Part shown: positions 13,032 through 60,181 of the stretch, in pieces
How the letters are laid out: each line of letters begins with the position of its first letter
Position numbering within the stretch: the first letter of the stretch is position 1
Source: Escherichia phage vB_EcoP-ZQ2
DNA: 64,000 nucleotides
Reading direction: 5' to 3' (one strand)
Sequence record: NC_070874.1
Program-made: the position numbers and the translations under genes
The notes under the pieces: generated by a model
Databases searched by the model: none
The model's input: the letters and a program-made list of their open reading frames with translations, nothing else
Told to the model about the DNA's origin: nothing

Positions 13032-13044
13032 GGCAGACCTTCAC

Positions 13045-13389: not shown

Positions 13390-13408
13390 TTAACCGGAGA
13401 TATTTCCT

Positions 13409-14629: not shown

Positions 14630-14645
14630 ACAGGAATGAGATGAT

Positions 14646-15848: not shown

Positions 15849-15865
15849 TAGTCCGAAATAAAACA

Positions 15866-15888
15866 AGGGGGACATAAGTCCCCCTCTT
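15866..15888 (+). terminator. hairpin terminator after capsid gene
   Basis: AGGGGGAC-ATAA-GTCCCCCT, weak U-tract. Confidence 0.45.
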
Positions 15889-15915
15889 AATAAAACTAAA
15901 TGAACCACAGGAAAT

Positions 15916-16554: not shown

Positions 16555-16624
16555 CGTATAAGCTACAGTTCAACACGGCTCACTGGGGTAACTCCGTGGG
16601 CCGTTTCTTTTTGAACCGAGAGGA

Positions 16625-17467
16625 ATGATTATGTCTTGTTCTGCTGAGGTAGAAGCTAACCGACTCCTAGAAGAGTTAACTAAGGGTGATGACTTTACCC
16701 TTCCTGATATTGATATGTCCGGCCCTGAATGGGATATCCCAGGTGGAGATGGTTCCCCAATCTTTGGTGCTATTACTAAGATAACCAATGAATCTCTTAC
16801 TACCCGTGAAGTAGGTGGTAGTGGTACGTTTGATGCATTAATGGAATCTGCACATAATCACCTTAAAGCTGAGTTTAAGGCTAACCGTATTACAGGTGGT
16901 GAATATACCAAAGCGTATATTGCTATGATGGAATCATGCATGAGTAATGCTGTTCAGTTCTTACTTGGTCGTGACCAGGCATACTGGGCTGCTGCACTGG
17001 CACAGATTCAAGCAGTTACTGCTCGTGTTCAATTGGCAACTACTAAAGCTCAGTTTGTACTGGCTAAGATTCAGGCACTGTCTGCTAAGAGTGAATACGC
17101 TCTTACTAAGATGAAGATTGCTACTGAATCTGAGACATATTGTGCTGCATTGTTTAACGTTAATCAGATGTTACCTCAACAGCTTAAGCTGATTACTGAG
17201 CAAACCGAATCACAACGTGCACAGACACTGGATACTCGTACTGATGGTGCAGTAGTTAAGGGTTCTGTTGGTAAACAGAAAGAACTGTACTCTCAACAGA
17301 TTACTTCTTATCAACGTGATGCAGAAGTTAAAGCATCTAAGCTGTTTACTGATGCATGGATTACTCAGAAAACTATTGATGAAGGCTTGAATCCACCAAA
17401 TGGTTTCACTAACGCAAGTATTGATACCATTCTGTCCAAGCTGAAGTCTAACAACGGGCTGAACTAA
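16625..17467 (+). CDS. virion structural protein (N4 gp54-like position)
   Basis: 280-aa ORF, alpha-helical/coiled-coil rich. Confidence 0.45.
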
Positions 17468-17468
17468 T

Positions 17469-20123: not shown

Positions 20124-20136
20124 CAGGAGAATCCCC

Positions 20137-20580
20137 ATGGATTTATCATTTTTAACAGGCAACCAAACTCCACAGCCAGCTGCTATGTCTTGGATGTCTA
20201 ATAACAATCAGAACTTTAATACCCCGGCTATGAACTATAACCCTGGTGCAGCTATTGGTATGGGTACGAATTTGGGTACATCTGCCCCTACTTCTTTCAT
20301 GTCTGGTTCAGCTAATCAGTTGGGTCTGAACGTACCAACCTTCCAATTAGGACTGGGTGCACTTGGTTCATTAGCTAATATCTATAGTGGTTTCCAGGCT
20401 AATAAGTTAGCCAAAGACCAGTTGAACTTTACTAAGAGTGTTACTAACACTAACCTGAATAATCAGATTAAGTCTTATAACACTGCACTAGAAGACCGTG
20501 CTCGTAGCCGTGCTGTTGCAGAAAACCGTGACCAGTCTTCAGCTGATGCTTACATTGCAGCTAACAAATTAACCCGTTAA
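20137..20580 (+). CDS. hypothetical virion protein
   Basis: 147-aa ORF. Confidence 0.45.
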   Translation: MDLSFLTGNQTPQPAAMSWMSNNNQNFNTPAMNYNPGAAIGMGTNLGTSAPTSFMSGSANQLGLNVPTFQLGLGALGSLANIYSGFQANKLAKDQLNFTKSVTNTNLNNQIKSYNTALEDRARSRAVAENRDQSSADAYIAANKLTR

Positions 20581-20592
20581 TAGGAAACCATC

Positions 20593-22539: not shown

Positions 22540-22556
22540 AATCTTACATACTAATA

Positions 22557-22580
22557 AAGCCCCATCCGGGGCTTTTCTCT
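22557..22580 (+). terminator. rho-independent terminator
   Basis: AAAGCCCC-ATCC-GGGGCTTT plus T-run. Confidence 0.6.
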
Positions 22581-22624
22581 TACATTCACTTACTGTACAG
22601 TGAATCTTCTTATACGATATAAGT

Positions 22625-25600
22625 TTGAACAGGAATCATGCTATGTCAACATTTGACCGTCTGGCAGGTTTCGCAGACAGCATCACTACTGCTAAGCAAG
22701 TCGATGTCTCTACTGCAACCTCTCGGAAACAAGCTGAACAAGGGCAAAACCCTTTCCAATTAACCCCACAGAACGCCTACCAGTTACAGGCAGGTCGTGC
22801 CGGTGATTTAGGTGCTGGTGCATTTGACCCAGGTTCTATTCAGGCAGATTTTACTAATGCCTCTCCTCTTGAAATCATAAACAAGTATGGCAATGAGCAA
22901 GGAATGGACATTCTTAATGCTCGTGTCAATGCAGCTAATGCTGTTCGTCGTGATTTAACTAAGAGTCGTACATATGGTGAAGCACTTGGTGATACCCTTT
23001 CTGGTGTTGGTCTTGGTGTTGCTAATACCCTTGGGGGCATTGCTGCTCTTGGCACAGGCTTGGTCAATGATAATGCCGGGGCATCCATTGCTTCCGGTCT
23101 TGACTGGTTGAACAAAGGTGTACACAACCTACAGTCTGATGCACTGAATGCTCGTCGTAATGTAGTACAGAACCAGAACGTAATATCTGCACAGGAAAAC
23201 GAAAAACAATATAAGCAGGATATTGATAAAGGAGAAAGTGAACTCGTTGCTTCCTTGTCTCGTATTGGTCGGGATGCTTACGATTCAGTTGCTAATACTT
23301 TGTCCAATGGCATGGCTGCTACAGATGGTATTGCTGAAGGTGTTGGTTCACTGTTTACTGGTGGTCCACTTATCCGTGGTGTATCTGCACTTGGTAAAGT
23401 AATGGTAGGTGGGGATAAAGCTGTTAAGGGTATTACCTTAGCTGCTGAATTAGGTTATCGTCCTGCACGTATTGCACAGACTGCTGGTCGTGTTGCTGCA
23501 CCTGCTATAGCAATTGGTGGTATGGAAGCTGGTGGTGCATACCAACAGACTGCTAATGAAATTATGGAAATGCCATTCAGTGAACTGGCTGCTAAATCTC
23601 CTGTATACCAACAACATATTAAAGATGGTTTAACTCCTGAAGAAGCACGACGTCAGACTGCATCTGAAACAGGTATCACTGCTGCTGGCTTAACCGCCCC
23701 AGTTGCTGCTCTCACTGGTCCACTGGTATCCAAGTTTGAACTTAACCCACTTAAGGTAGGTTCACTGGCTGGTGCTGGTTCTAACATGCTACGTGAGACT
23801 GTGGAGGAAGGTATTCAATCCGGTTTCGGTCAATTCGCACAGAACAAAGCAATTCAGGGTAACGTGGATGCTAATCGTGATTTGCTTAAAGGTGTAGGTG
23901 AACAAACTGGTCTAGGTGCATTGTATGGCTTTGGTTCTGCTGGGGTTGCTCAAGCTCCTGGTGTAACTGCTAAGACTGCCGTTGCTGCCGTTGGTCCTGC
24001 TGTACGTACTACCCTGGCTGGTGCTTCTCTGGCTGGTAAGGCACTAGCAAAAGTAGCTTCTCCTATTACTAACATTCTGGTTCAGCGTGGAGAAGAAGTT
24101 GCTAAGCGAAATGAGCAAGCATCTCCTGTATCAGACGTTACGGTTAATGCTGCTGCACAAGAAGCTACTGCTCAGGCAGAACAGGCTCAAGCAACTGTTC
24201 AGGAAGCAGTAGATGCAATGGACATTTCTCCAGAAGAGAAAGCTGCTGCTACTCAGTATGCTGCTGACTTAACTCAGGCAATGAAGTTTGACCCAGTAGA
24301 ACTGGAACAAGCTAGTCCAGCAATCCGTGAAGCTGTTTCTGGTTCCACTAACCGTGTTGAAGCTATTCAGAAGATGGCTGACCTGGTTAATACTGCCGAA
24401 GATCCTAACGTTCAAATGGAAGCTGCAATCCAGATGTATGACAACATCATGTCTATGGATAGCTTCATTAACCGTGACCCAGGTGCATTAGCTAATCTGG
24501 AACAGGGTTCTCCTGCTGCTAATATTGTTGACCAGTTCTCCGGTCTGATGGCTAACGTTCAGAATACACCGAAGGTACTTCGTGCATTCCGTGCCATCCA
24601 TTCCATGATTCAGGAACAGGCAGAAGCAGGTAAACTGAAGGCTACTGAAGAAGCTAACCAAGCCCAAGCAAACAACATTGCTATGGCTGCTGATATGTCT
24701 CCAGAAGTACTGGATGCTGATTCAGTGAACATGGTTCTGAAACACGCAAGTGAAGGTAAGATTACGCTGGGGAATCGTCAGCGTGCTGCCCTGCAATCTG
24801 CTGCTGCTCTATTGCAAGGAGCACGAGAATTTGATGCTAAAGCAGAAGAGCTAGGCTTACGTCCTCAAGACATTGTTAGTAAACAAATTAAAACCGACGA
24901 ATCTCGTTCTAATGAAGGCCAGTACTCTGCGTTGCAACATGCTAAACGCATTCGTTCTGCGTATAACTCTGGTAACTTCGATTTGGCTTCCGCTTATCTC
25001 GATGACTTTATGAAGTTCGCCCAGCACATGCAGAATAAGGTCGGAGCGTTGAATGAGCATTTGATTTCTGGGAATGCGGATAAGAATAAGTCTGTCCATT
25101 ATCAGGCTCTTACTCCCTCCCGTGAATGGGTACGTAGTCGTACTGGCCTCGGTGTTAATCCGTATGATACCAAGTCTGTTAAGTTTGCCCAGCAAGTAGG
25201 ACTGGAAGCCAAGACCGTAGCTGATATTGCTAACGCACTTGCTACGGCTTACCCGGAGCTTAATGTTTCTCATGTGAAAGTTACCTCATTGGATTCACGT
25301 CTGGACAAGCCTGCTGCCCAGGTAGTTAAAGAGTTCCGTCAGGGCAATCTTGACGCTGCTCAATCCCAACAGACTAATGAACCAGTGAATCAGGTTGATG
25401 AAACTCCTGTTACAAAACAGGAACCAGTTACCCCTACTGTACAGACTAAACCCTCTGTTAGTGAAGCTGTTAAAACAGAACCCACTATTAAAGAGTCTAA
25501 ACCACAGTCTGTAAAAGAACCTGAGAACCAGTCTGAAAAACAGGATACCGTTGATCAGTCTACTGAATCTGAAAGGGATGCTTATGTAAAAGAGAATACT

Positions 25601-31600: not shown

Positions 31601-33460
31601 GCTCAGACAGAAATTGAAGGCATGGACTTTGCTATTTCTTACCTGGTTGGTCAGCGTAAAGATGAAATGGCTAAAGCTAAATCTGATAGCCGTGCAACCT
31701 TGAACCAGTACAAAGGGTATATTCCCGGTGAGACTAAACAGGGTGTTAATCTGATTGTTGCTGAAGATAATCAGTTTGCTGATTTGATTGAGAAATCCTA
31801 TGTACGTCTGGGTACTTATCAGGGTAGCTCTGCTAACCGTGGTCCAGCACGTAGCTACTACTTTGCACCAGTACAGGCACAGGCTCCATTCTCACAGGGT
31901 ATTCTACAGAACGTTCGTAATACTGCTGGTGGTGTAGACCTTGGTACAGGCTTTACGATGGGGACCATGGTAGCTGGTCGTATCACTGACAAACCTTCCG
32001 TAGACCGTATCACTAAAGCACTGGCTCGTGGTGAACGTGGTAATGAACCACTGCTGCCTGTATATGATACCAATGGTAATGTGGTTGCTTATGAGCAATC
32101 CATTGACCCAAGCATGCTGAAGCACATCGAGGGTGAGAACCATCTTGCTCGTGCAATCGGTGTATGGCGAGGTCGTCAGGTAGAAGAGGCTAAGGCTCAG
32201 CGTTTCAACGATATGCTGATTGAGAACCTGCATAGCATGTATGAGAACGACATTAAAATGTCTGCTTCTAATAAGTCCCAGTACGTTAACCTTCTTGGTT
32301 CTAAACTGGACCCAGTAACTGCTGATGCACTTAAGCTGATGAACAGTGAAACTCGTCAGAAAGCAGAAAGTCTGTTTGGCCCGGGTGAGCTATGGGTACG
32401 TCGTGACATGCTGAATGATGCACTAGGTTATCGTGCAGCTTCTGTTGGTGATGCCTGGTCTGGTAATTCTCGTTGGTCCCCAGAAACACTGGATACCTTC
32501 AAGAAAGCTATGCTGGGTGTCTTCGGTAACCGAGCCTATAAATATGTAATGGGTGGTGAGAACCTGGTTCAAAACTTAGTTAAAGAAGCTAAGACTCTAA
32601 TTGTAGTTAAGTCAGTAGTTGTACCTGCTGTTAACTTCCTGGCTAACCTTTACCAGATGGTTGCTCGTGGTGTACCTGTTAAGAACATTGCTAAGAGCAT
32701 TCCACAGAAGACTGCTGAGATTAATCAGTACCTGAAATCTCGCCTGCGTCAGGTAGATGCAGAAGCAGAATTACGTGCAGCTACTAACCCGAACCAGATT
32801 CGTAAACTTAAGGCTGAGATTCAATCAATCACTGATAGCCATAAACGTTTGAGTATCTGGCCTCTGTTAGAAGCTGGTGAGTTCTCTTCAATTGCAGATG
32901 CTGGTATTGGACGTGATGACATCCTGATTACTGAAGGTAAGATTCACGAATACATGGATAAGCTGGCTGATAAGCTGCCTAAGTCTGTACGTAACGCAGG
33001 TCGTTATGCACTTATCACTAAGGATACTGCTCTGTTCCAGGGTATCCAGAAGACGGTTGAGTACTCTGACTTTATCGCTAAAGCAATCATCTATGATGAA
33101 CTGACTCAGCGTAAAGGTAAGACTCGCGAAGAAGCACTGGGACGTGTAACAGAAGAGTTCATTAACTATGACCGTCTGCCAGGTCGCTTCCGTGGGTATA
33201 TGGAAAGTGTTGGTCTTATGTGGTTCTATAACTTTAAGATTCGTTCTGCAAAAGTTGCAGTATCCATGATTCGTAACAACCCAGTACATGCTGCTATGGC
33301 TATGTTGGCCCCAACCCCTACCATGTTTGGTAATGTTGGTCTGCCTATTAAGGACAACATCTTTAGTATTGCTGCACAGGGCAACCTCGGTTACTCCTTC
33401 GGATTCGGTATGGGCTTACGTGCCCATACCCTGAACCCGTGGCTCAACCTTACTAACTAA
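22625..33460 (+). CDS. virion-encapsidated giant RNA polymerase (N4 vRNAP-like)
   Basis: single 3611-aa ORF; central region with T7-like RNAP-type motifs (IYGSGARGI, FDGMNIG); position next to internal virion protein genes. Confidence 0.8.
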   Translation: MNRNHAMSTFDRLAGFADSITTAKQVDVSTATSRKQAEQGQNPFQLTPQNAYQLQAGRAGDLGAGAFDPGSIQADFTNASPLEIINKYGNEQGMDILNARVNAANAVRRDLTKSRTYGEALGDTLSGVGLGVANTLGGIAALGTGLVNDNAGASIASGLDWLNKGVHNLQSDALNARRNVVQNQNVISAQENEKQYKQDIDKGESELVASLSRIGRDAYDSVANTLSNGMAATDGIAEGVGSLFTGGPLIRGVSALGKVMVGGDKAVKGITLAAELGYRPARIAQTAGRVAAPAIAIGGMEAGGAYQQTANEIMEMPFSELAAKSPVYQQHIKDGLTPEEARRQTASETGITAAGLTAPVAALTGPLVSKFELNPLKVGSLAGAGSNMLRETVEEGIQSGFGQFAQNKAIQGNVDANRDLLKGVGEQTGLGALYGFGSAGVAQAPGVTAKTAVAAVGPAVRTTLAGASLAGKALAKVASPITNILVQRGEEVAKRNEQASPVSDVTVNAAAQEATAQAEQAQATVQEAVDAMDISPEEKAAATQYAADLTQAMKFDPVELEQASPAIREAVSGSTNRVEAIQKMADLVNTAEDPNVQMEAAIQMYDNIMSMDSFINRDPGALANLEQGSPAANIVDQFSGLMANVQNTPKVLRAFRAIHSMIQEQAEAGKLKATEEANQAQANNIAMAADMSPEVLDADSVNMVLKHASEGKITLGNRQRAALQSAAALLQGAREFDAKAEELGLRPQDIVSKQIKTDESRSNEGQYSALQHAKRIRSAYNSGNFDLASAYLDDFMKFAQHMQNKVGALNEHLISGNADKNKSVHYQALTPSREWVRSRTGLGVNPYDTKSVKFAQQVGLEAKTVADIANALATAYPELNVSHVKVTSLDSRLDKPAAQVVKEFRQGNLDAAQSQQTNEPVNQVDETPVTKQEPVTPTVQTKPSVSEAVKTEPTIKESKPQSVKEPENQSEKQDTVDQSTESERDAYVKENTISQDTLNKYGDRKESPWLFADGTVVGSNGDHISLSDVFGHDGYRDMSLDTGAIRSTFYKGSEQPFVSLQLFDNQKLTTEQFNTVQSFVEANNALIQIGVDTSGLNTNNVEKEEVSLAQLKADYTVGGKPLSQMETVFPVYNNEKTPNQFLKAFSLPEEPKSRTIGSESPLTDVKKALSSVARFESFTQKENNALTSDVIKRYQDLFDFGETLKTTLSDRLAKFLANKNVGKRFAEGTEANRWVGGKLLNIVEKDGDTFKFNDQLLETAVLAGLQWRLTATQNAAIKDMQDVAAITGVNASLLPEGILAEFENAQTLVEATNSLAQKIESYWGLNRNADAPLGYTKGIPMAMATEILSSLIEMGEVKESMLDVSEIDSESNKTIGLYTIEKLDDTDAINKFPTAIEEAVLIEPEEKLYLGDDIPSVAPTQLRNPAVRNTPEQKAALKAEQATEFFVHTPMVQFYEALGKDRILELMGAGTLNKELLNENHAKSLEGKNRSVEDSYNQLFSVIEQVRAQSEDISSVPIHYAYNMTRVGRMQMLGKYTPQSAKLVREAILPTKATLDLSNQNNEDFSGFQLGLAQALGIKVHKMTRETMSEELTKALEGKLKPAVDMMVEFDKSGYLPTDAVDILRTSLGNDKSFVALMALMEYARYLNSDDRANFNTPLYVEADGVTNGPINAMVLMTGGKFTPNWIKNTAKGGLFFGKAGKTMNEHHTQDDSVDLYEASTNSLQFHLNELRNTYSKNIPVINQMDHLQKLMDLFIKDFNLNEDGTLDLKRGIAKNPLTITIYGSGARGIAGKMVSAITDTIYERLSDVLKARAADPNISPAMAMFGKEAASEADAQAKLDTFLTSMKELTGKIPAKRKGRLFIKEVEGALTGKLNPQKFTVSGDALKNLQENMLHFFVEPMRQGIRFTVGEGLMHSTENLQKATQIQSLVLQDMFQQAVQAKLAEKEKDPTWKKGDFLTQKELNEIQNSLAPLAPMIKTGSQTFYIAGSENTDVANQVLATNLDDRMRVPMSIYAPSQAGVAGIPFMTIGTGDGMMMQTLSTMKGAPKNTLKIFDGMNIGINDITDASRKANEAVYTSWQGNPIKNVYESFSKFVKNVDLNKLSDSAIDAIAKSALDFEQRAHIARVDGDRDYKISMIRDSGIALIERNLRNIALGVDIRHKVMDQVQVTVDQMAAVGAPYVNNGKISLEGLTIDQQVAKLNELFDAELNKRRDAVRAAKAEPTKAEPVKEVPVKVVPAMEKVGRVLKSGVRLLSNTAITKLAKEMTPDQQAVLKEIQKSLAAKDYKVVYGTPSQLDAYAIEKNITRPAPEDIEAAEAGNAYGWTNFEDKTIYLVTPSLETLVHELVHASTFESVLAHYEGTPNEAVQNIEDLMNQFLTLDVKDESPAVREAYADALNTINGHLSNGFIEPAMAKAAALNEYMAWGLTNRELISKQKKTTALKTMVQAVYEAIKRLVFGRKKAPANADDMFSGLLFNSAVVMRGQAPTAAVAKDTTLFHNKAYGNNTRLEELGKTFDKLITDYIGSEPVQQVIRKGKFSDAVVNATKVTRDVQAHGFTMNMQEQRLFTNIVAALATEAAINPAAMARAQEYYTHVTKNLTVEAFMADPDSTNPADRYYAQQKFDTIMGANNIEFDAQGRSSLLPTFVGLAMVSEEVRKVLADIPVMKADKKSGNTVDAMLTNIGTAAMVSLNARVAGDTKATNVREGMDALAQTIMETSLNAQSFYDSVATPTGNAIDRANQYLVDSIDVLSTRTLEGAREVAANTKNPLVKGAAHAAQLVAAIATEKNGAIVAEGVMAAMNQGKVWQPFHDLVNDIIGRTKSNASVYDLIKAVRAQVQADRQQFREHLPTTIASKFSRKLTNDEWKAMHTGMGKTDLAVLRDTMSLAEIRDLLTDQKIVDREVNKLEADLQKQAGRNWPLISRKSKQLAQYMINGTVGNNLLRNATAISRLLGERKTTRSVVDVAQLDKLITLYALEAMNKTDREMLSSLAQTEIEGMDFAISYLVGQRKDEMAKAKSDSRATLNQYKGYIPGETKQGVNLIVAEDNQFADLIEKSYVRLGTYQGSSANRGPARSYYFAPVQAQAPFSQGILQNVRNTAGGVDLGTGFTMGTMVAGRITDKPSVDRITKALARGERGNEPLLPVYDTNGNVVAYEQSIDPSMLKHIEGENHLARAIGVWRGRQVEEAKAQRFNDMLIENLHSMYENDIKMSASNKSQYVNLLGSKLDPVTADALKLMNSETRQKAESLFGPGELWVRRDMLNDALGYRAASVGDAWSGNSRWSPETLDTFKKAMLGVFGNRAYKYVMGGENLVQNLVKEAKTLIVVKSVVVPAVNFLANLYQMVARGVPVKNIAKSIPQKTAEINQYLKSRLRQVDAEAELRAATNPNQIRKLKAEIQSITDSHKRLSIWPLLEAGEFSSIADAGIGRDDILITEGKIHEYMDKLADKLPKSVRNAGRYALITKDTALFQGIQKTVEYSDFIAKAIIYDELTQRKGKTREEALGRVTEEFINYDRLPGRFRGYMESVGLMWFYNFKIRSAKVAVSMIRNNPVHAAMAMLAPTPTMFGNVGLPIKDNIFSIAAQGNLGYSFGFGMGLRAHTLNPWLNLTN

Positions 33461-33461
33461 A

Positions 33462-33495
33462 TAAAAAAGCCCCTCTAATGAGGGGCTTCTATTTT
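33462..33495. terminator. bidirectional rho-independent terminator at the convergence of late (+) and early/middle (-) transcription
   Basis: AAGCCCCTC-TAAT-GAGGGGCTT 9-bp stem flanked by A-run upstream and T-run downstream. Confidence 0.7.
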
Positions 33496-33856
33496 ACTTC
33501 TTAACTACAAGAGCTTTTCGGTCAGTTTTGATTACATAATCAATCTTGTTGGCATTAAAGTGAATATCTACAAAATTGGCGTCTACCTTTTGGTAAGTAC
33601 CGTTGTTTCTGCGAATACCTAACTTCTTACAGTGAACCATTGCGATTCCTGTATCCGGTATAGCAATCCAGTTGTTATCATCAATTTGTACATCACAACC
33701 AAAGGTTAAACGATGTCTTGCTTTACGATGGACATGTAAACCACCAATACGCTTTGGTATAATCTGACCCTTCCTAAAGAGTTCCAATGTTTGAACTTGA
33801 TGCGCTGCAAATGATTTAGTCATGCGTTCTCCACATCTTGGGCTTACGCCCTTCAC
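33494..33856 (-). CDS. hypothetical protein, possible degenerate HNH-like nuclease
   Basis: 120 aa; His/Asn spacing GGLHVHRKARHRL...DDNNW...VHCKK loosely HNH-like; overlaps upstream ORF by 41 nt. Confidence 0.3.
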   Translation of the reverse strand: MKGVSPRCGERMTKSFAAHQVQTLELFRKGQIIPKRIGGLHVHRKARHRLTFGCDVQIDDNNWIAIPDTGIAMVHCKKLGIRRNNGTYQKVDANFVDIHFNANKIDYVIKTDRKALVVKK

Positions 33857-34049
33857 TTGGAAATTTACCAGTCTCTTTAATCTTCCGTAATGTTTCCTCT
33901 GATGGGAACCACAGGAATGTGAAGTAAAGTTTCTTGGCTACGTAACGAGTTACTCCAAGTTTCTCTACGATTTCATCGAAAGAATATGTACGAACAGTAT
34001 TGTTGAGAATGGCCTCACGAACAACAGAGGTAATAGATACTTGTGTCAT
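33816..34049 (-). CDS. hypothetical protein (may be N-terminal part of a frameshifted gene with 33494..33856)
   Basis: 77-aa ORF. Confidence 0.3.
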   Translation of the reverse strand: MTQVSITSVVREAILNNTVRTYSFDEIVEKLGVTRYVAKKLYFTFLWFPSEETLRKIKETGKFPSEGRKPKMWRTHD

Positions 34050-54466: not shown

Positions 54467-54721
54467 TTATTTTTTACTAATAATGGGGTTTTTGTAATTC
54501 CAGGCTTTACTAAGTTTTTCCAATTTAAACCCTGAATACCCATATTCTTTAGACAGAATCTCTTCAGCAGTATCCATTGCATTAATCTTGCTTAAACGCC
54601 CATCTATACAGATGTTTTTAAAACTGCCTGTGGATTCTCTGTATATTCCATTGGAATCTTTCTCCAACATGGTTGCATACCAACTTGCCATAAGTCCTCC
54701 TGGGACAGTTATTGAAACCAA
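54467..54721 (-). CDS. hypothetical protein
   Basis: 84-aa ORF starting right after a minus-strand terminator. Confidence 0.4.
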   Translation of the reverse strand: MVSITVPGGLMASWYATMLEKDSNGIYRESTGSFKNICIDGRLSKINAMDTAEEILSKEYGYSGFKLEKLSKAWNYKNPIISKK

Positions 54722-54745
54722 AAAAAGACCTCCCGGAGGAGGTCT
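54718..54745 (-). terminator. rho-independent terminator (minus strand)
   Basis: minus strand AGACCTCC-TCCG-GGAGGTCT followed by TTTTTTT. Confidence 0.65.
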
Positions 54746-54750
54746 TAGGT

Positions 54751-54987
54751 TTACTTACTATTCTCTTCAATGAAGCGTCTCATACGTTCCTTTGCTTCAT
54801 CATGTTCCTTAATGGCTACATAGTCCCGTGCATAATAATATACACACCATAGGCCAATAGCACATGCAGAGAAGCGAGCCACTACGAAGAACATCTCTTC
54901 CAGGCTCTGAGCATTGTGTAATGAAAATACAAATTCCAGGACCAGGATTATATTTATAATCATTGCCTGGATAGCTAGTTTTTTCAT
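54751..54987 (-). CDS. small membrane protein
   Basis: 78 aa with two hydrophobic helices. Confidence 0.4.
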   Translation of the reverse strand: MKKLAIQAMIINIILVLEFVFSLHNAQSLEEMFFVVARFSACAIGLWCVYYYARDYVAIKEHDEAKERMRRFIEENSK

Positions 54988-55928
54988 TCAGTAATAGTCT
55001 CACCAGGGATTAACTTACGGAATTGGATAAAGTGAAGCAGGTTACCTGAGTACAGATTCCCTTCTTTATCCATGGATGTAACACCTTGTTCCCATGTAAC
55101 TGGGTTCATGTTATTCACGTACTTCTCACTAAGGTTCATAGGCGTAGCCTGATGTTCCGTTGGGGAAGCATGAATAGGTTGGTTTTCTACTAACTTAGCA
55201 AATAAGCCAAGGTCTTCTTCGATAGTAGATGGGAGTCCTTCAAAATTGTTATAAGAAGCACGAGCACAGCGTGCAGCACTTACTTTAAGAAGTAGGCCAT
55301 GTACTTCTGCATCACTTGGTTCATCGCGTGCAACTCGATTACGTTTGCAGAAATTGTAAGCCCCAACACGGTCAATATGAGCAATGTACGGCAGATGCCA
55401 TTGTCCATATGGTAATGCTCTTGGTGTACTTTCTTCATGTGCCTTACGCATTGCTTGAGCCAGTTCACGAATCTCTGGTTGTGCATCTTTGTGGTCACGC
55501 AGTCCATAGAAGTTAGCCCAGCTAGTTGAAGTTACCACTACACGGATATGTGTGAAGGGTTCCAGAATACGGTTAACAATCTGCTTATGTACTTGCCCAC
55601 GACGCAACATTTCTGCATATGTAGCAACACTGGATGCAGCCTGTTCCCAGATAAAAATTGCATCACTGCGTTGGTCTTCAGATAATTCTTCAAATGCCTG
55701 CATACCTTTCTGGTTCTTGCCCCAGTGACTTGGCATCACTGGTTCATTACGAACCTGTTCAATCAACTTAGATGTAGGAATAGCACGGCTACTTGAAGCA
55801 TTACGGTTGAATACACGGTGAGTCATAAACTCACTGTGAATGAATCGGGGATAAACCAATTCAAAGGTTGTGATACGGGTTCCTGTTTCTGGATGAACGG
55901 AATCCGCAATTACTGATGCCTTAATCAT
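54984..55928 (-). CDS. flavin-dependent thymidylate synthase-like protein (ThyX-like)
   Basis: ...SEFMTHRVFNRNASSSRAIP... resembles the ThyX RHR-x7-S signature with T replacing the first R. Confidence 0.5.
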   Translation of the reverse strand: MIKASVIADSVHPETGTRITTFELVYPRFIHSEFMTHRVFNRNASSSRAIPTSKLIEQVRNEPVMPSHWGKNQKGMQAFEELSEDQRSDAIFIWEQAASSVATYAEMLRRGQVHKQIVNRILEPFTHIRVVVTSTSWANFYGLRDHKDAQPEIRELAQAMRKAHEESTPRALPYGQWHLPYIAHIDRVGAYNFCKRNRVARDEPSDAEVHGLLLKVSAARCARASYNNFEGLPSTIEEDLGLFAKLVENQPIHASPTEHQATPMNLSEKYVNNMNPVTWEQGVTSMDKEGNLYSGNLLHFIQFRKLIPGETITE

Positions 55929-56371
55929 TAGAATGACCTTAGATAGTTGGTGATACCACTTCTTGTCTCTGTGATCCTCTTAACCTGAACATATACCAGC
56001 TTAAATTCACTACGAGGTAGTTCTTGTAATACTGCTACACCTTCAGTAAGAGCCACAGAACACGCTACAGCGGTTTCTTCTTTAAAGGAGTACAAGTCTT
56101 CATACATGAGGGCTTCATACTCCTTACGGAGCATACAGAGAGCATGTCTTGCCTTATCACTTACTTCTCGTGAACCAGCAGACATAGCTAAGCTGTATAT
56201 GACAAAGACTTGTTCAAAAACAAAGTCTAGTAATCTATCAGGATTGTTAGTCCCCATAAATAATTTTGATGTGTATGAACGAGCTTTACGGTTGAGTTCA
56301 TACTCATCTTCTATGCCTTTATTATAAAGAATGGGATTTCGTTCCCTTTTTCTTAGGAATGGGATACGCAT
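55928..56371 (-). CDS. hypothetical protein
   Basis: 147-aa ORF, start/stop coupled. Confidence 0.4.
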   Translation of the reverse strand: MRIPFLRKRERNPILYNKGIEDEYELNRKARSYTSKLFMGTNNPDRLLDFVFEQVFVIYSLAMSAGSREVSDKARHALCMLRKEYEALMYEDLYSFKEETAVACSVALTEGVAVLQELPRSEFKLVYVQVKRITETRSGITNYLRSF

Positions 56372-56769
56372 TAGTATTTACTACCTCTTCTATACCAGGG
56401 GTAGTGGTGAGTAGTACTCTTACCTTTGAACACATCCTTAGTATGAGGATTCTTTTGTATTTGAGTCAGATAAAGTTGCATATCATCCCCGTATGGGTTA
56501 AGCCAGAACTTATCTATGATTCGGTCTACCTTAGATTTCAAATGTGGTTCTGGAGGAATGTAGGTTTCAACGAATACCTGTCTACCTGTCCAACCATTAG
56601 CTAATGTTTGTTTCATCTTGGAGAGCATATTCTCCAGATTCTTTAATTCAACTTTAGAAACAGTAACATCTATTGAGTCATGAATGCCTGCGTGTGCAAT
56701 TAGCCTTTCTTCCAGCTTACTAAAGTCCATATCATGTAGGACTGATTTACCTCGTCTATTTTGAAACAT
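56371..56769 (-). CDS. hypothetical protein
   Basis: 132-aa ORF. Confidence 0.4.
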   Translation of the reverse strand: MFQNRRGKSVLHDMDFSKLEERLIAHAGIHDSIDVTVSKVELKNLENMLSKMKQTLANGWTGRQVFVETYIPPEPHLKSKVDRIIDKFWLNPYGDDMQLYLTQIQKNPHTKDVFKGKSTTHHYPWYRRGSKY

Positions 56770-56782
56770 AACAGTACCTGTA

Positions 56783-56811
56783 ATTAAAAAAGCCCACGGG
56801 TTAGGTGGGCT
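56783..56811 (-). terminator. rho-independent terminator (minus strand)
   Basis: minus strand GCCCAC-CTAACCC-GTGGGCT followed by TTTTTTAATT. Confidence 0.55.
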
Positions 56812-56886
56812 TGGGTTAGGAGATGGATAAGCAATGAGCTGGAAGTAACTTCCACAAGCATCACTATGTAATGATGCTTAGGTTAG

Positions 56887-57183
56887 TTACTCTGCTTTAC
56901 TGCTCGTGTGAGACACGTTGTATTGGTTACCACTGCCAACGTTAACGATTGTAGTCTGTGATTGCCCTTTATTAGACAGTGACCAAATCAGTGCTACTGC
57001 CCAAAATACTAGTGACCAGCCCAATACGATATTAAGCACACCAATACCCCATTTAGAGGCATGTCCTCGTGCAAAAGCAATGATAGTAGGGATAAGGTAT
57101 ACAGCTAATATGAATAACAGTACAAGGATTGCTGCTAAAGATTCCATGATGGTTCCTATGTGGGGTTGAGTTAGTTTCTTCAC
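56887..57183 (-). CDS. superinfection immunity protein (Imm-like membrane protein)
   Basis: 98 aa; ...YLIPTIIAFARGHASKWGIGVLNIVLGWSLVFWAVALIWSL... matches the Imm-family pattern. Confidence 0.65.
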   Translation of the reverse strand: MKKLTQPHIGTIMESLAAILVLLFILAVYLIPTIIAFARGHASKWGIGVLNIVLGWSLVFWAVALIWSLSNKGQSQTTIVNVGSGNQYNVSHTSSKAE

Positions 57184-57220
57184 AAATAGCCCAACAATGC
57201 TGGGCTATTTAGGCAGCTAC

Positions 57221-57430
57221 TTACTCAGAGTCTTTGCTTGCAGGAGCAAGAGCTTTCTTCAGGTAATTACGTACCGAACGATAGGTTTCTTTGGTTTCTA
57301 TATAGTTATTATCTACAAATATGACGCGTGCATGGTCAGACTGTGGAATCTGTTCTACTGCAATTACATTTGTAGCATTAATGGTTAAGCGTACATCTGA
57401 GGTTGCATGAGTTACTTGAAATACTGACAT
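57221..57430 (-). CDS. hypothetical protein
   Basis: 69-aa ORF. Confidence 0.35.
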   Translation of the reverse strand: MSVFQVTHATSDVRLTINATNVIAVEQIPQSDHARVIFVDNNYIETKETYRSVRNYLKKALAPASKDSE

Positions 57431-57439
57431 GAGTTTTCC

Positions 57440-57946
57440 TTATTTACTGCTTCTTGCAGCTACTGGTTTGTTTTCCTGGTTCTGATACTTGCCATTGTAA
57501 TTAGCAGGTTCTTGAACCAGATGAAATAATACTTGAGCTATCCCAGCACCAGCCGGGATATGTAATTTCTTACGACCATGATAGACCAGTTCAAGAGTCA
57601 AATACCCTTTCCATCCTGGTTCTATTACGGTATTGAATACTGATAATGCACGCCTTGCCCATGTAGACTTGTCGTGAACGATAGCTACACAGGAAGGGGA
57701 CATGTTAAACTTCTCAATTGCTGAAGCCAATGTGAACTTACCGAGATGTCGTGATACTTGATTTCCATCAACGACCTTCACCATTGGAATCAACCCAAAT
57801 AAGCGATAGAAGGTAATATCTTGTTTGATGCGAATATCATAACCAGCTTCACCCAATCCATAGCTTACACCATGCTCGGATATCTTACGGTCTGGGACAT
57901 CCAACAACTGAGATGAACGATATAGAGAATTACCATTAACAACCAT
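57440..57946 (-). CDS. dCTP deaminase (dUTPase-fold)
   Basis: GYDIR, EPGWKGYLTLEL and AGIAQVLF motifs characteristic of the dCTP deaminase/dUTPase family. Confidence 0.7.
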   Translation of the reverse strand: MVVNGNSLYRSSQLLDVPDRKISEHGVSYGLGEAGYDIRIKQDITFYRLFGLIPMVKVVDGNQVSRHLGKFTLASAIEKFNMSPSCVAIVHDKSTWARRALSVFNTVIEPGWKGYLTLELVYHGRKKLHIPAGAGIAQVLFHLVQEPANYNGKYQNQENKPVAARSSK

Positions 57947-59154
57947 TATTTCATTCCTTTAGGGATATGAACTACCTCCCCAAAAGGTACGGTAGCATTG
58001 GGATTATTCAGAACACACCAGATGATAGGGATATCAAATGGCAATTCTTCCATTGGACGAACATACATATCGGAGAATATGATTGCAGCGGTTGGCTTAT
58101 TCTTAATAATCCAATCGCGTACTGGTTCAAGGTTTGTACCACCACGACCGGTAATCTTAATCTCTTCGAATGTATCTTCTTCAGTGATGTCTATCTCTTC
58201 CTGGATAATATCGTCGAAGGTAATTAGGGACATCTTCTTAGGATTGAACTGGCTCTTAACATAGGCAACCTCTGAGTTAAAACGTAGAGAGTCAGCACTA
58301 CTAATAGAACCAGATACATCCTCAAAGTAGGCTAAGTGACGTAGACGTCCTTCATCATCTTCCAGTGAAGGTAGATAGATGTCAGTGTAACGACGGTTAG
58401 GTCTGGCCCACGTATAGTGAGTGTCATCAATGTCGGTAAAGAAGTTCATCAGAACTTCCTGCCATGGAACCACTGGTTTAAGGAATTGGGTAATAACCTC
58501 TTCCATACGACCAGCACCCTTACCAGGCATCTGTCCACCAGCCATCTTCTGGCTCTGCATTGCACGTACTACGTTGTTGACGACAGCACCCTGGGACTGC
58601 CCCGAAGTGGGGGATTTCATGTCGCCAGCAAGACCTGCTCCAGCACCCCCCGATGGCTTCTGCCTTTTCTGAGGGTTCTTCATCAGGTCATCGTAGATGT
58701 CTTCTTCGACCCATCCTTTATATTGAGGGTCTTTACAAATACCTTCATTGATACCAGTGAACTTGTAACCATCTTCCTCTAGCTGAAGGTTAATAAAGTG
58801 GTCACATGCCTGGTTCCAGACTTCCGGGTCACGGCTACCACGACGGATGTCGTGTAGATATGCCACATGCCATAGTTCGTGCATTAATACTGTTTCTCTT
58901 GCATCTGGACACATCCAGATAAAGAAGTCTGGGTTGAAGTGAAGTTCTACCCCATCAGTACATGCAGTGGGACAATCCTCACGTTTCCATGAGAATTTAA
59001 GACTACACAGTAATGAACCAAAGAACGCAGCAGACTTGCCTAGGAAAGCCTGAGCCTGAATACGGTCATACTCACGCATGAGTTGTTCATCACTAAGTGT
59101 GTGCTGAGGAAATTGGTTCATATTGTGATTATCCATGAATGTAACGAGAGACAT
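57946..59154 (-). CDS. vWA-domain protein with N-terminal HExxH metallopeptidase-like motif
   Basis: HELWH motif; MIDAS-like DVSGSIS; 402 aa; coupled to AAA ATPase gene. Confidence 0.65.
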   Translation of the reverse strand: MSLVTFMDNHNMNQFPQHTLSDEQLMREYDRIQAQAFLGKSAAFFGSLLCSLKFSWKREDCPTACTDGVELHFNPDFFIWMCPDARETVLMHELWHVAYLHDIRRGSRDPEVWNQACDHFINLQLEEDGYKFTGINEGICKDPQYKGWVEEDIYDDLMKNPQKRQKPSGGAGAGLAGDMKSPTSGQSQGAVVNNVVRAMQSQKMAGGQMPGKGAGRMEEVITQFLKPVVPWQEVLMNFFTDIDDTHYTWARPNRRYTDIYLPSLEDDEGRLRHLAYFEDVSGSISSADSLRFNSEVAYVKSQFNPKKMSLITFDDIIQEEIDITEEDTFEEIKITGRGGTNLEPVRDWIIKNKPTAAIIFSDMYVRPMEELPFDIPIIWCVLNNPNATVPFGEVVHIPKGMK

Positions 59155-60181
59155 TAGCAGCAGCCTTACGCCACTCAGGAGTAGCCTGAATTTCTGGTAA
59201 TGCTCTGCCTACTGTGCGGAAGTACAGAATCTTATGGGTGAACGTTTTAAAGCGTTCAATGTACTGAAGAACATCAACAAAGTTCTCTTCAGTAGTTTTG
59301 TTAGCCAGGTGGTTAACGGTAGCCCAGCACAGGTTGTTATCTTCCGGTAGTGCACAGCCCAGTGGGTCTTTGACTACCTTCTCAATCGTAATGATACGAT
59401 TATATACCTGGGTAAACTGAATAAATTCTGTAGCTTTACCAGCAGTAACGTGACCTGCATAGTAGATAGAATCTTCATCAGGCAGAGCACCTTCCGGCTG
59501 GTTCTTGAGGTCTTTATTAACAAAGTCCCAGGTACGAGGGCAACAGAACGTTTTGTTCTTATGAGCTGGGTCGAAGTCATGCAGATAGCCTGGATTAGCA
59601 TGTAAGAATGCAACCAGACGTTCATCCCAATGTTGAGGAATCATTACGTCTTCAACAAAGATGTCGAAGTTAAGTTCCATTTCAAAGTGAACCACACGAG
59701 ACTGCATTGCAGTACCTAATGGGTTAACAATGGCACGGTCAGTAGCTTTGTTACCAGCACAAACAATCATCACATTAGGATGAAGTTTTTTCTGTCCAGT
59801 CATACGATCCAGAATCAGTTTGTATGCAGCAGCTACTACTTCTTTCTTAGCGGAGTTGAATTCGTCAAGGAATAAAATCCACCCGTTATATCCTTCTGGT
59901 ACTTCATCTCCCTCAATAGGGAATAAGTCAGCGAATGGAATAAACTCTGCACGGTCACCATTACGAAATGGTAAGCCAGAAAGGTCTTCCGGGGCAGAAG
60001 TAGACAGACGATGGTCTATCAGCTTCATACCAAATTCTTCTGCAATAGAACGAATGATTGCAGACTTACCCATGCCAGGTGATGAAGTCAGGAACGGTAC
60101 GTTACCTGCTTTCAGGGCACGGACAATAAAGTTACGAGCTTGACGTGAATTACATACGGTCAAGGAGTCGATGCTTGCCAT
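59129..60181 (-). CDS. MoxR-type AAA+ ATPase
   Basis: Walker A SPGMGKSAI, Walker B ILFLDEFN, 350 aa. Confidence 0.7.
   Translation of the reverse strand: MASIDSLTVCNSRQARNFIVRALKAGNVPFLTSSPGMGKSAIIRSIAEEFGMKLIDHRLSTSAPEDLSGLPFRNGDRAEFIPFADLFPIEGDEVPEGYNGWILFLDEFNSAKKEVVAAAYKLILDRMTGQKKLHPNVMIVCAGNKATDRAIVNPLGTAMQSRVVHFEMELNFDIFVEDVMIPQHWDERLVAFLHANPGYLHDFDPAHKNKTFCCPRTWDFVNKDLKNQPEGALPDEDSIYYAGHVTAGKATEFIQFTQVYNRIITIEKVVKDPLGCALPEDNNLCWATVNHLANKTTEENFVDVLQYIERFKTFTHKILYFRTVGRALPEIQATPEWRKAAANVSRYIHG

What the first reader, a model, noticed from the sequence alone, without database searches (positions are those of the whole stretch)
54984..57946. Phage-encoded pyrimidine pathway: dCTP deaminase plus a ThyX-like protein with non-canonical signature
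dCTP deaminase (57440..57946) and a ThyX-like protein (54984..55928) would together allow dCTP to dUTP to dUMP to dTMP conversion independent of host ThyA. The ThyX-like protein has THR-x7-S instead of the canonical RHR-x7-S, so it may be divergent or have a different methylene-transfer chemistry (possible base modification).
Basis: partly seen in the sequence, partly recalled or inferred. Interest (0 to 1): 0.4.

Follow-up and report, generated by a model that had tools for sequence, protein, structure and literature searches.

The report
Rearranged phage ThyX plus dCTP deaminase
An N4-like coliphage carries the usual, already-annotated pair of genes for turning dC nucleotides into thymidylate, but its ThyX-type enzyme belongs to a large, biochemically untested subfamily whose sequence segments are in a different order from textbook ThyX and which lacks two residues considered important in it.

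Summary
Both ORFs exist exactly as stated, and the THR-x7-S motif is real. The window is a Gamaleyavirus (G7C/N4-like coliphage, about 92% identical to phage HK2). The 314-aa protein is the N4 gp30 family, annotated "thymidylate synthase" in over 1000 phage records, so the pathway is ordinary and already annotated.

The odd motif is a family trait, not a local mutation: Thr in 129 of 132 diverse representatives. It comes with two further differences from canonical ThyX:
- The Tyr91 equivalent is Ala in at least 93% of the 132 representatives.
- The ThyX N-terminal helical segment, which carries the Ser30 and His53 equivalents, sits after the core (aa 216-265) instead of before it. hhalign gives 94-96% probability. 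Re-ordering the segments gives one collinear alignment to T. maritima ThyX at 98.8%.

The equivalents of Ser30, His53, His79, Ser88, Arg90, Arg147 and Arg174 are invariant or nearly so.

Gene context argues for real dTMP synthesis rather than exotic base modification. Saccharibacteria chromosomes carry rplA–thyX-like–dcd–tmk, and PVC-group bacteria place the gene next to class II ribonucleotide reductase.

I found no biochemical data and no description of the rearrangement. The pathway is known. The enzyme is an undescribed structural variant of moderate interest.

The parts
54984..55928 (-). ThyX-like protein, 314 aa (N4 gp30 family, PHROG 85): predicted flavin-dependent thymidylate synthase with rearranged segment order
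55419..55877 (-). Core segment, aa 18-170, homologous to T. maritima ThyX residues 60-200. Contains the equivalents of R147 (R120), N169 (N139) and R174 (R144).
   Evidence: hhalign probability 94-95%, 137-138 aligned columns. Translation checked. Conservation in 132 representatives.
55785..55823 (-). Variant ThyX motif T36-H37-R38-x7-S46-S47-R48. Canonical is R78-H79-R80-x7-S88-G89-R90. The next residue, A49, replaces Y91.
   Evidence: Translation THRVFNRNASSSR. T36 in 129/132, H37 132/132, S46 131/132, R48 132/132. A49 invariant in the 20- and 37-sequence alignments and at least 93% conserved in the 132.
55134..55283 (-). Relocated segment, aa 216-265, homologous to ThyX N-terminal helices alpha1-alpha2 (T. 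maritima residues 21-65). Carries S225 (=S30), H253 (=H53), S255 (=T55), E258 (=E58), H259 (=H59).
   Evidence: hhalign probability 93.6-96.1%, E 3e-9. Score 59.0 against a maximum of 20.2 in 60 column shuffles and 15.9 reversed. HMMER finds the same pairing independently. Translation.
55014..55046 (-). Family-specific C-terminal motif GNLLHFIQFRK (aa 295-305) with near-invariant N296, Q302 127/132 and R304 132/132. No counterpart in canonical ThyX. Candidate replacement for a lost active-site residue (inference).
   Evidence: Conservation. Translation.
57440..57946 (-). dCTP deaminase-like protein, 168 aa (Dcd/dUTPase fold) with S94, R98 and E119 at the catalytic positions
   Evidence: Pfam DCD 59 bits. 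PHROG 1663 E 7e-59. PDB Dcd hits and alignment 'kStwaR...GylTlEl'. TIGR02274 77.7 bits, below the 92.8 cutoff.
55928..56769 (-). Two small ORFs of unknown function (147 aa and 132 aa; PHROG 9867 and 12812). Each overlaps its neighbour by one base, so they may be translationally coupled to the ThyX-like gene. Not conserved with the ThyX-like gene outside this phage group.
   Evidence: no Pfam or NCBIfam hit.
56790..56812 (-). Terminator-like hairpin (8-bp stem plus T run) in the 117-bp gap between the superinfection-immunity gene and the 132-aa ORF. It may separate the Dcd transcription unit from the ThyX-like unit.
   Evidence: Consensus scan only. 7 terminator-like sites against 2.2 expected in the region.
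54725..54746 (-). Terminator-like hairpin (9-bp stem plus T run) just downstream of the 78-aa ORF that follows the ThyX-like gene
   Evidence: Consensus scan only.

Best explanation
The window comes from a Gamaleyavirus (N4-like coliphage). Its middle-gene region encodes a Dcd-type dCTP deaminase and an N4 gp30-type ThyX-fold enzyme.

Proposed pathway (inferred from family membership and gene context):
1. Dcd converts dCTP to dUTP.
2. dUTP becomes dUMP through host Dut, or through Dcd itself if it is bifunctional.
3. The ThyX-like enzyme methylates dUMP to dTMP using a reduced flavin and methylene-tetrahydrofolate.
4. Host Tmk and Ndk make dTTP.

This would shift the pyrimidine pool towards T for a 43% GC genome replicating in a host of higher GC content (E. 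coli is about 51% GC, from my own knowledge), without depending on ThyA or DHFR.

The enzyme is not a canonical ThyX. It belongs to a very large subfamily:
- over 1000 phage records;
- 5261 cluster representatives (50% identity) match at E <= 1e-3, of which 2855 at E <= 1e-30; some of the weakest may be canonical ThyX;
- Saccharibacteria and PVC-group chromosomes.

In this subfamily the helical segment that supplies the Ser30 and His53 equivalents lies C-terminal to the core rather than N-terminal. Arg78 is Thr and Tyr91 is Ala. New (near-)invariant residues appear: M76, K115, H178 and R304 invariant, H114 130/132, Q302 127/132.

Shown here: the ThyX fold, the segment homology and order, the residue conservation, and the gene contexts.
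Inferred: flavin use, dUMP as substrate, dTMP as product, and compensation for R78 and Y91 by the new invariant residues.
For: Identity of the phage:
- 92.7% nucleotide identity to Escherichia phage HK2, Schitoviridae, Gamaleyavirus.

Fold:

Rearrangement:
- HMMER maps profile 205-259 to ThyX chain 22-71, then 19-48 to 73-102, then 100-169 to 140-211.
- hhalign gives aa 18-170 = T. maritima 60-200 (94-95%) and aa 216-265 = T. maritima 21-65 (94-96%).
- Shuffle control: 59.0 against a maximum of 20.2.
- An in-silico re-ordered profile aligns collinearly to T. maritima 1-202, probability 98.8%, E 9e-16, 192 columns.

Conserved chemistry in 132 representatives:
- S225 (S30), H253 (H53), E258, H259, H37 (H79), R48 (R90), R120 (R147) and R144 (R174) are each 132/132. 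S46 (S88) is 131/132.
- The roles of S30, H53, S88, R78 and Y91 are taken from PMC11940539.

Functional context:
- Five Saccharibacteria/Patescibacteria loci carry rplA–thyX-like–dcd–tmk(–rplJ).
- About 19 Verrucomicrobiota, Kiritimatiellia and Lentisphaerae loci have the gene directly upstream of class II RNR.
- These cellular proteins keep THR, HKQ, WHLPY and HxSPxEHQATP.

Other support:
- Inteins interrupt family members exactly at H31 and H253. Inteins typically sit at essential conserved sites (own knowledge), so this fits those sites being functionally important.
- Dcd: Pfam, PHROG and PDB matches with Ser/Arg/Glu aligned.
- Window GC is 0.40-0.46.
Against: - No member of this subfamily has been assayed, as far as I could find.
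- The protein fails the NCBIfam thyX equivalog cutoff (57.7 < 87.9).
- It lacks R78. In T. maritima ThyX, R78 stabilises the reduced flavin N1/C2=O.
- It lacks Y91. Mutation of Y91 slows flavin oxidation about 1000-fold (PMC11940539).
- The equivalents of N163 and R165 are Thr. From memory, these are FAD contacts in T. maritima ThyX.
- The model is a monomer and I had no coordinates. I could not check that the relocated helices and the new invariant residues reach the active site. In ThyX that site is built from three subunits.
- The two genes may lie in separate transcription units.
- Whether Dcd is mono- or bifunctional was not determined.
Confidence: 0.75

Rival explanations
1. The enzyme is a ThyX-fold methylase with a shifted substrate or product. 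Examples: UMP/dUMP as in PolB, dCMP, a triphosphate, or a hydroxymethylated product released because the final flavin reduction step is impaired. It would then feed a non-canonical pyrimidine into phage DNA or into some other product.
For: - R78 is Thr and Y91 is Ala across the family. Y91 mutation strongly slows the flavin oxidation/methyl-transfer half-reaction (PMC11940539).
- New (near-)invariant residues K115, H178, R304 and Q302 have no ThyX counterpart.
- The score is below the thyX equivalog cutoff.
Against: - Cellular members lie in a conserved cluster with dCTP deaminase and thymidylate kinase between ribosomal protein genes, or next to RNR. That is housekeeping dTMP context.
- The R90, R147 and R174 equivalents are invariant. 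From my own knowledge of T. maritima ThyX, R90 and R147 bind the dUMP phosphate and R174 the uracil.
- No glycosyltransferase, kinase or aminotransferase-type modification gene was flagged near the two genes or in the annotated relative.
- The family occurs in over 1000 phages of many lineages. From memory, none is known to replace thymine.
Confidence: 0.12
2. The ThyX-like protein is catalytically dead. It would be a nucleotide- or flavin-binding regulator or a structural remnant, and only Dcd acts on the nucleotide pool.
For: Loss of two residues considered important in canonical ThyX (PMC11940539), and partial Pfam coverage.
Against: - Invariance of eight mapped active-site positions over 132 representatives that are 60% identical to the query or less.
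- Retention in minimal Saccharibacteria genomes next to dcd and tmk.
- Intein insertion at two conserved motifs.
- All of these point to a selected catalytic function.
Confidence: 0.04
3. The apparent rearrangement is an alignment artefact. The C-terminal 145 residues would be an unrelated extra domain, as in the Thermus Thy1 with an extra C-terminal domain, and the protein would simply lack the ThyX N-terminal helices.
For: - The individual HMMER domain scores for the C-terminal match are weak (0.5-2.8 bits).
- No 3D superposition of the segment could be made.
Against: - Profile-profile probability 94-96% with E 3e-9, far above shuffled and reversed controls.
- The re-ordered profile gives a single collinear alignment with a higher score, 85-92 against 56.
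- The matched positions are exactly the functional S30, H53, T55, E58 and H59 residues, and they are invariant or nearly so.
- The predicted helices at 206-226 and 236-248 match the alpha1-alpha2 pattern.
Confidence: 0.08

Closest known systems
Canonical flavin-dependent thymidylate synthase ThyX/FDTS (Pfam PF02511, TIGR02170; T. maritima TM0449, M. tuberculosis, PBCV-1 A674R, H. pylori)
   Same: - The equivalents of S30, H53, E58, H79, R80, N85, S88, R90, R147, N169 and R174 are conserved.
- Same expected reaction and the same pairing with a dC-nucleotide deaminase.
   Different: - Segment order is rearranged: the alpha1-alpha2 segment lies after the core.
- R78 is Thr, Y91 is Ala, N163 and R165 are Thr, H178 is Asp.
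- About 95 extra residues, with new motifs GMQA, HKQ, WHLPY and GNxxxWxQxRK.
- Below the TIGR02170 cutoff.
- No biochemical data.
Bacteriophage N4 gp30 and its homologues ('putative thymidylate synthase', PHROG 85) in Schitoviridae, Pakpunavirus, ICP1, rV5-like, phiCbK-like and other phages
   Same: - Direct family membership: PHROG 85 E 4e-115.
- 83-98% identity to Gamaleyavirus proteins and 31-66% to members in other phage groups.
- N4 gp30 is named as the reference homologue in PMC2784036.
   Different: Nothing substantive. This is one more member. In roseophages the partner enzyme is a dCMP deaminase rather than a dCTP deaminase.
PolB (UMP/dUMP C5-methylase of polyoxin biosynthesis), a neofunctionalised ThyX paralogue
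   Different: PolB did not stand out from the canonical ThyX structures in the structural searches. I recall it keeps the canonical segment order and differs by loop insertions, but I did not check this here. There is no natural-product gene cluster context in the window.
dCTP deaminase Dcd (TIGR02274, PF22769; E. coli 1xs1, Burkholderia 4dhk) and bifunctional dCTP deaminase-dUTPase (M. tuberculosis 2qxx)
   Same: Same fold family. Ser-x3-Arg and the catalytic Glu in the TLE motif align.
   Different: - Shorter: 168 aa against 190-193.
- 77.7 bits, below the 92.8 equivalog cutoff.
- Mono- versus bifunctionality is undetermined.

Membership tests
ThyX / FDTS (PF02511, TIGR02170) | ThyX (Thy1) three-dimensional fold | tested here: met
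   [not shown]
ThyX / FDTS (PF02511, TIGR02170) | Pfam Thy1 gathering score | tested here: met
   52 bits against 24.8, but covering only profile positions 60-190 of 191.
ThyX / FDTS (PF02511, TIGR02170) | NCBIfam thyX equivalog cutoff | tested here: not met
   57.7 bits against a cutoff of 87.9.
ThyX / FDTS (PF02511, TIGR02170) | ThyX motif RHR-x7-S | tested here: not met
   The motif is THR-x7-S. Thr in 129/132 family representatives. His, the second Arg and Ser are kept.
ThyX / FDTS (PF02511, TIGR02170) | Collinear domain order (N-terminal alpha1-alpha2 with S30/H53 before the beta3/RHR core) | tested here: not met
   aa 216-265 = ThyX 21-65 and aa 18-170 = ThyX 60-200. Controls. Re-ordered profile is collinear at 98.8%.
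ThyX / FDTS (PF02511, TIGR02170) | Active-site residues S30, H53, S88, R90, R147, R174 (T. maritima numbering) | tested here: met
   S225, H253, R48, R120 and R144 are 132/132. S46 is 131/132.
ThyX / FDTS (PF02511, TIGR02170) | Tyr91 and Arg78 (flavin/folate gating and stabilisation of reduced flavin) | tested here: not met
   A49 and T36 occupy these positions. Roles are taken from PMC11940539.
ThyX / FDTS (PF02511, TIGR02170) | Bound flavin, NAD(P)H- and CH2H4folate-dependent dUMP to dTMP activity, homotetramer | not testable with these tools
   Needs biochemistry or a multimer model with ligands. Only indirect support from the dcd–tmk and RNR neighbourhoods.
N4 gp30-like phage 'thymidylate synthase' (PHROG 85) | Full-length sequence similarity to the family | tested here: met
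   PHROG 85 E 4e-115 over aa 2-313. 1014 phage records cover at least 80% of the query. 2855 cluster representatives at E <= 1e-30.
dCTP deaminase (PF22769 / TIGR02274) | Pfam DCD gathering score | tested here: met
   59.1 bits against 27. PHROG 1663 E 7e-59.
dCTP deaminase (PF22769 / TIGR02274) | NCBIfam dCTP_deam equivalog cutoff | tested here: not met
   77.7 bits against 92.8.
dCTP deaminase (PF22769 / TIGR02274) | Catalytic Ser, Arg and Glu (E. coli S111, R115, E138; numbering from memory) | tested here: met
   The alignment to 4dhk and 3km3 shows kStwaR paired with kStyaR and GylTlEl paired with GyvTlEf, i.e. S94, R98 and E119.
dCTP deaminase (PF22769 / TIGR02274) | dCTP to dUTP (or dUMP) activity | not testable with these tools
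   Needs an enzyme assay.

The most novel reading that the evidence does not exclude
The N4 gp30-type enzymes are not ordinary thymidylate synthases. The segment rearrangement, the loss of Arg78 and Tyr91, and the gain of K115, H178 and R304 would have changed the chemistry: a different flavin handling or carbon-transfer outcome, or a different nucleotide substrate. Under this reading, N4-like and many other phages would make a non-canonical pyrimidine nucleotide.

A milder version is much more likely, at roughly 0.5. In it, they make dTMP but form a mechanistically distinct, structurally permuted class of FDTS that is the housekeeping enzyme of Saccharibacteria and PVC bacteria.
Probability: 0.07. 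Interest if true: 0.7.

Novelty: new variant of a known kind. Interest (0 to 1): 0.35.

Why it matters
As a pathway, this is routine phage nucleotide metabolism and is already annotated.

The enzyme class deserves a note. ThyX is a studied antibacterial target with an unusual flavin-mediated methylene transfer. This subfamily is very large: over 1000 sequenced phages, thousands of metagenomic clusters, and apparently the chromosomal enzyme of Saccharibacteria and many Verrucomicrobiota and Kiritimatiellia. It has a different chain topology and lacks two residues (R78, Y91) that current mechanistic models use.

If it is an active thymidylate synthase, it shows which ThyX residues are dispensable. 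It would also be a natural example of non-collinear rearrangement inside a multi-subunit active site.

It further means that motif-based filters such as RHRx7S, and equivalog HMM cutoffs, systematically miss or under-score this class.

Tried and rejected
- Defence-system reading: no PADLOC hit for any of the seven ORFs scanned.
- Fusion partners as functional clues: the long family members turned out to be intein-containing, not domain fusions.
I replaced it with a profile-profile comparison of the re-ordered alignment.
- Key ThyX mechanistic and mutagenesis papers were not held: PMC2258874, PMC3465422, PMC4744818. Residue roles therefore come from PMC11940539 and, for N163, R165, R90, R147 and R174, from memory.
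- Literature searches found no description of a permuted ThyX, no biochemistry for N4 gp30 homologues, and nothing on ThyX in Saccharibacteria. The library covers only open-access papers, so absence there is weak evidence.
- I did not determine whether Dcd is bifunctional.
- The sigma-70 promoter scan gave fewer hits than in shuffles and is uninformative for an N4-type phage, which uses its own RNA polymerases.
Full report
**1. What is in the sequence**

They lie in a long run of minus-strand genes. In transcription order (descending coordinates):
- AAA ATPase (59129-60181);
- a DUF2201 metallopeptidase/VWA-like protein (57946-59154);
- Dcd;
- a 69-aa ORF;
- a superinfection-immunity protein;
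- two small unknown ORFs;
- the ThyX-like gene;
- a 78-aa ORF;
- further downstream, rIIA.

The 6.2-kb stretch is 92.7% identical to Escherichia phage HK2 (Schitoviridae, Enquatrovirinae, Gamaleyavirus). It is about 90-92% identical to dozens of G7C-like coliphages. In those records the two genes are already annotated "FAD-dependent thymidylate synthase" and "dCTP deaminase". N4 gp30 is the named reference homologue for this "putative thymidylate synthase" in the N4-like roseophage literature. There it is paired with a dCMP deaminase (PMC2784036; PMC11934525). The pathway idea is therefore correct but already standard annotation.

**2. The dCTP deaminase**

- Pfam DCD scores 59 bits against a cutoff of 27.
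- PHROG 1663 gives E 7e-59.
- The best solved relatives are bacterial dCTP deaminases (4dhk at 5e-11, 3km3, and E. coli 1xs1). The Ser-x3-Arg and Gly-x-x-Thr-Leu-Glu motifs align, giving S94, R98 and E119.
- It is short and scores below the NCBIfam equivalog cutoff (77.7 < 92.8).

I file it as a divergent Dcd-family deaminase. I could not decide whether it also hydrolyses dUTP. No dUTPase is annotated in the related phage genome, so the dUTP-to-dUMP step is inferred to come from host Dut or from a bifunctional Dcd.

**3. The ThyX-like protein: fold and motif**

- Pfam Thy1 matches (52 bits), but only aa 21-169 against profile positions 60-190.
- NCBIfam thyX scores 57.7 against a cutoff of 87.9.
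- Sequence search of the PDB gives only marginal ThyX hits (E about 0.01-0.02).
- An AlphaFold2 model built on 20 homologues is confident (pLDDT 85.8, pTM 0.85).

**4. The motif is a family trait, and the protein is rearranged**

In an alignment of 132 cluster representatives (60% identical to the query or less), Thr36 occurs in 129, with Lys in 2 and Arg in 1. More importantly, the missing N-terminal part of ThyX is not missing.

- HMMER with the family profile against T. maritima ThyX chains reports three pieces in non-collinear order. Profile 205-259 maps to chain 22-71, profile 19-48 to chain 73-102, and profile 100-169 to chain 140-211. A canonical-ThyX HMM gives the same result.
- Profile-profile comparison confirms it. 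aa 18-170 = T. maritima 60-200 (probability 94-95%). aa 216-265 = T. maritima 21-65 (probability 93.6-96.1%, E 3e-9).
- The C-terminal match scores 59.0. The maximum over 60 column-shuffled controls is 20.2, and the reversed profile scores 15.9.
- I re-ordered the family alignment in silico as aa 1-13 + 205-259 + 18-172. It then aligns collinearly with T. maritima ThyX residues 1-202: probability 98.8%, E 9e-16, 192 columns. The local score is 91.7, against about 56 for the native order.
- The predicted helices at 206-226 and 236-248 fit the ThyX alpha1-alpha2 pair.

So the helical segment that lies between beta2 and beta3 in canonical ThyX has been moved behind the core. A variable linker (aa about 171-215) precedes it. 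A tail follows it and ends in a conserved GNxxxWxQxRK motif. Both alignments claim T. maritima residues 60-65, which is consistent with a duplication-and-loss origin (inference). I could not superpose coordinates, so the 3D equivalence of the relocated segment is inferred from sequence and secondary structure only.

**5. Residue bookkeeping (T. maritima numbering → window)**

Conserved:

| T. maritima residue | Window residue | Count in 132 |
|---|---|---|
| S30 | S225 | 132 |
| H53 | H253 | 132 |
| T55 | S255 | 128 |
| E58 | E258 | 132 |
| H59 | H259 | 132 |
| H79 | H37 | 132 |
| R80 | R38 | 128 |
| N85 | N43 | 122 |
| S88 | S46 | 131 |
| R90 | R48 | 132 |
| R147 | R120 | 132 |
| N169 | N139 | 131 |
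| R174 | R144 | 132 |

Changed:
- R78 → T36.
- Y91 → A49, invariant in the 20- and 37-sequence alignments and at least 93% conserved in the 132.
- E86 → A44. In T. maritima ThyX, E86 contacts the flavin only through its main chain.
- N163 → T133 and R165 → T135.
- H178 → D148.

According to PMC11940539:
- R78 points at N1/C2=O of the reduced isoalloxazine.
- S88 and S30 hydrogen-bond its C4=O.
- H53 stacks on the flavin or the folate and is held by Y91 and N85.
- Y91 mutation slows flavin oxidation about 1000-fold.

The subfamily therefore keeps most of the catalytic apparatus but lacks two residues used in current mechanistic models. It has its own (near-)invariant residues with no ThyX counterpart: M76, K115, H178 and R304 invariant, H114 130/132 and Q302 127/132. 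These are candidates for compensation (inference).

**6. How widespread, and what the context says about function**

- The family has 5261 representatives (50%-identity clusters) at E <= 1e-3 and 2855 at E <= 1e-30.
- tblastn finds it in 1033 phage records: N4-likes, Pseudomonas Pakpunavirus-type phages, Vibrio ICP1, rV5-like coliphages, and Caulobacter, Campylobacter, Flavobacterium and Myxococcus phages. Where the listed records are annotated, the gene is almost always called a (putative) thymidylate synthase.
- A scan of one genome per prokaryotic species, using a single conserved peptide pattern, returned 75 loci. Many are prophages or mis-binned phage contigs, but two groups are clearly chromosomal.
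  - In Saccharibacteria/Patescibacteria the gene sits in rplA–thyX-like–dcd–tmk(–rplJ). This holds for L061, L062, L063, L064 and L067. L063 lies on a 796-kb contig. The arrangement is conserved although the Dcd proteins are only 45-54% identical and the Tmk proteins only 33-44%.
  - In about 19 Verrucomicrobiota, Kiritimatiellia and Lentisphaerae loci it lies immediately upstream of a class II ribonucleotide reductase, among ordinary cellular genes.
- These cellular proteins keep THR, HKQ, WHLPY, SxARxAxxSY and HxSPxEHQATP.

A gene clustered with dCTP deaminase and thymidylate kinase in a reduced genome is most simply the thymidylate synthase. This is the strongest argument that the phage protein makes dTMP. 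It also reproduces the same Dcd + ThyX-like pairing seen in the window.

**7. Mechanism proposed**

Shown: the fold, the homology of both segments, the conserved residues, and the contexts.

Inferred:
- A homotetrameric flavoenzyme.
- The equivalents of R90 and R147 hold the dUMP phosphate and the R174 equivalent polarises uracil (residue roles from my own knowledge of T. maritima ThyX).
- The relocated helices supply S225 and H253 to the flavin/folate site, possibly from a neighbouring subunit.
- Methylene is transferred from CH2H4folate via reduced flavin, giving dTMP and H4folate.

Together with Dcd, this would convert the dC pool into dT for a 40-46% GC genome, independently of host ThyA and DHFR. 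I put confidence in this function at about 0.75, and confidence that the rearrangement is real at about 0.9.

**8. Rivals**

It is favoured by the R78 and Y91 losses and by the PolB precedent. It is disfavoured by the tmk/dcd/RNR contexts and by the absence of any modification-type gene flagged near the two genes.
- Catalytically dead protein (about 0.04). This is contradicted by strict conservation and by retention in minimal genomes.
- Alignment artefact for the rearrangement (about 0.08). This is contradicted by the controls.

**9. Novelty and verdict**

The finding as written, phage Dcd + ThyX giving dTMP, is already known at the annotation level and is ordinary for N4-like phages. The non-canonical motif is real, but it is the signature of a whole subfamily.

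Ten full-text searches found neither a description of this subfamily's rearranged topology or its loss of R78 and Y91, nor any biochemical test of it. The library holds only open-access papers, so this is not proof of absence.

I rate it as a new (undescribed) variant of a known kind, interest 0.35. It is worth a bench test by a ThyX laboratory, but it is not a surprise about phage biology.

Noticed in passing
Family members P0173, P0242, P0135, P0154, P0178 (insertion near aa 24-32 of the window protein) and P0206, P0211 (insertion at aa 253-255): Several 480-650-aa family members are interrupted by inteins carrying HNH or LAGLIDADG homing endonucleases. One insertion point is right after 'YPRFIH' (H31), just upstream of the THR motif. 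The other is right after the His (or His-Ser) of the 'HASP' motif, i.e. the ThyX H53 equivalent. Junctions read ...RFIH|CFDEETEIL and ...PAH|CYDEQTEVL.
   Followed up: partly
L002 (JANQNF010000027.1, 69,347-bp contig labelled 'MAG: archaeon isolate PL23a_bin.95'): This contig encodes a ThyX-like protein 84% identical and a Dcd 95% identical to the window's proteins, and it has the length of a Gamaleyavirus genome. It is almost certainly a coliphage genome mis-binned into an archaeal MAG.
   Followed up: partly
window 57946-59154 (-): The 402-aa protein has Pfam DUF2201_N (putative metallopeptidase, 195 bits) plus a DUF2201 VWA-like domain, and sits next to an AAA ATPase (59129-60181). PHROG 1314 and many GenBank records nevertheless call it 'HNH endonuclease', which looks like a propagated misannotation.
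   Followed up: partly
L001 (PP514361.1 record positions 11889-22673): In the HK2 record a 10.8-kb CDS is annotated 'DNA polymerase'. Its size and position fit the giant N4-type virion RNA polymerase, so this is probably another misannotation. I did not check it.
   Followed up: no
window 54700-58100: Terminator-like hairpins are enriched (7 found against 2.2 expected). The two on the coding (minus) strand, at 56812-56790 and 54746-54725, bracket a possible transcription unit of 132-aa ORF, 147-aa ORF, ThyX-like gene and 78-aa ORF. Dcd would then lie in the preceding unit.
   Followed up: partly
window 54984-54987, 55928, 56371, 57946: Successive genes overlap by 1 or 4 bases (stop/start overlaps), suggesting translational coupling along the Dcd and ThyX-like gene strings.
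   Followed up: no
window about 32000-34000: Cumulative GC skew peaks here and the sign of the skew flips. This is consistent with the switch from plus-strand to minus-strand genes in the window.
   Followed up: no
window 56887-57183 (-): A superinfection-immunity protein (Pfam Imm_superinfect, 60 bits; PHROG 1039) lies between Dcd and the ThyX-like gene. It is a membrane moron inside the nucleotide-metabolism block.
   Followed up: no
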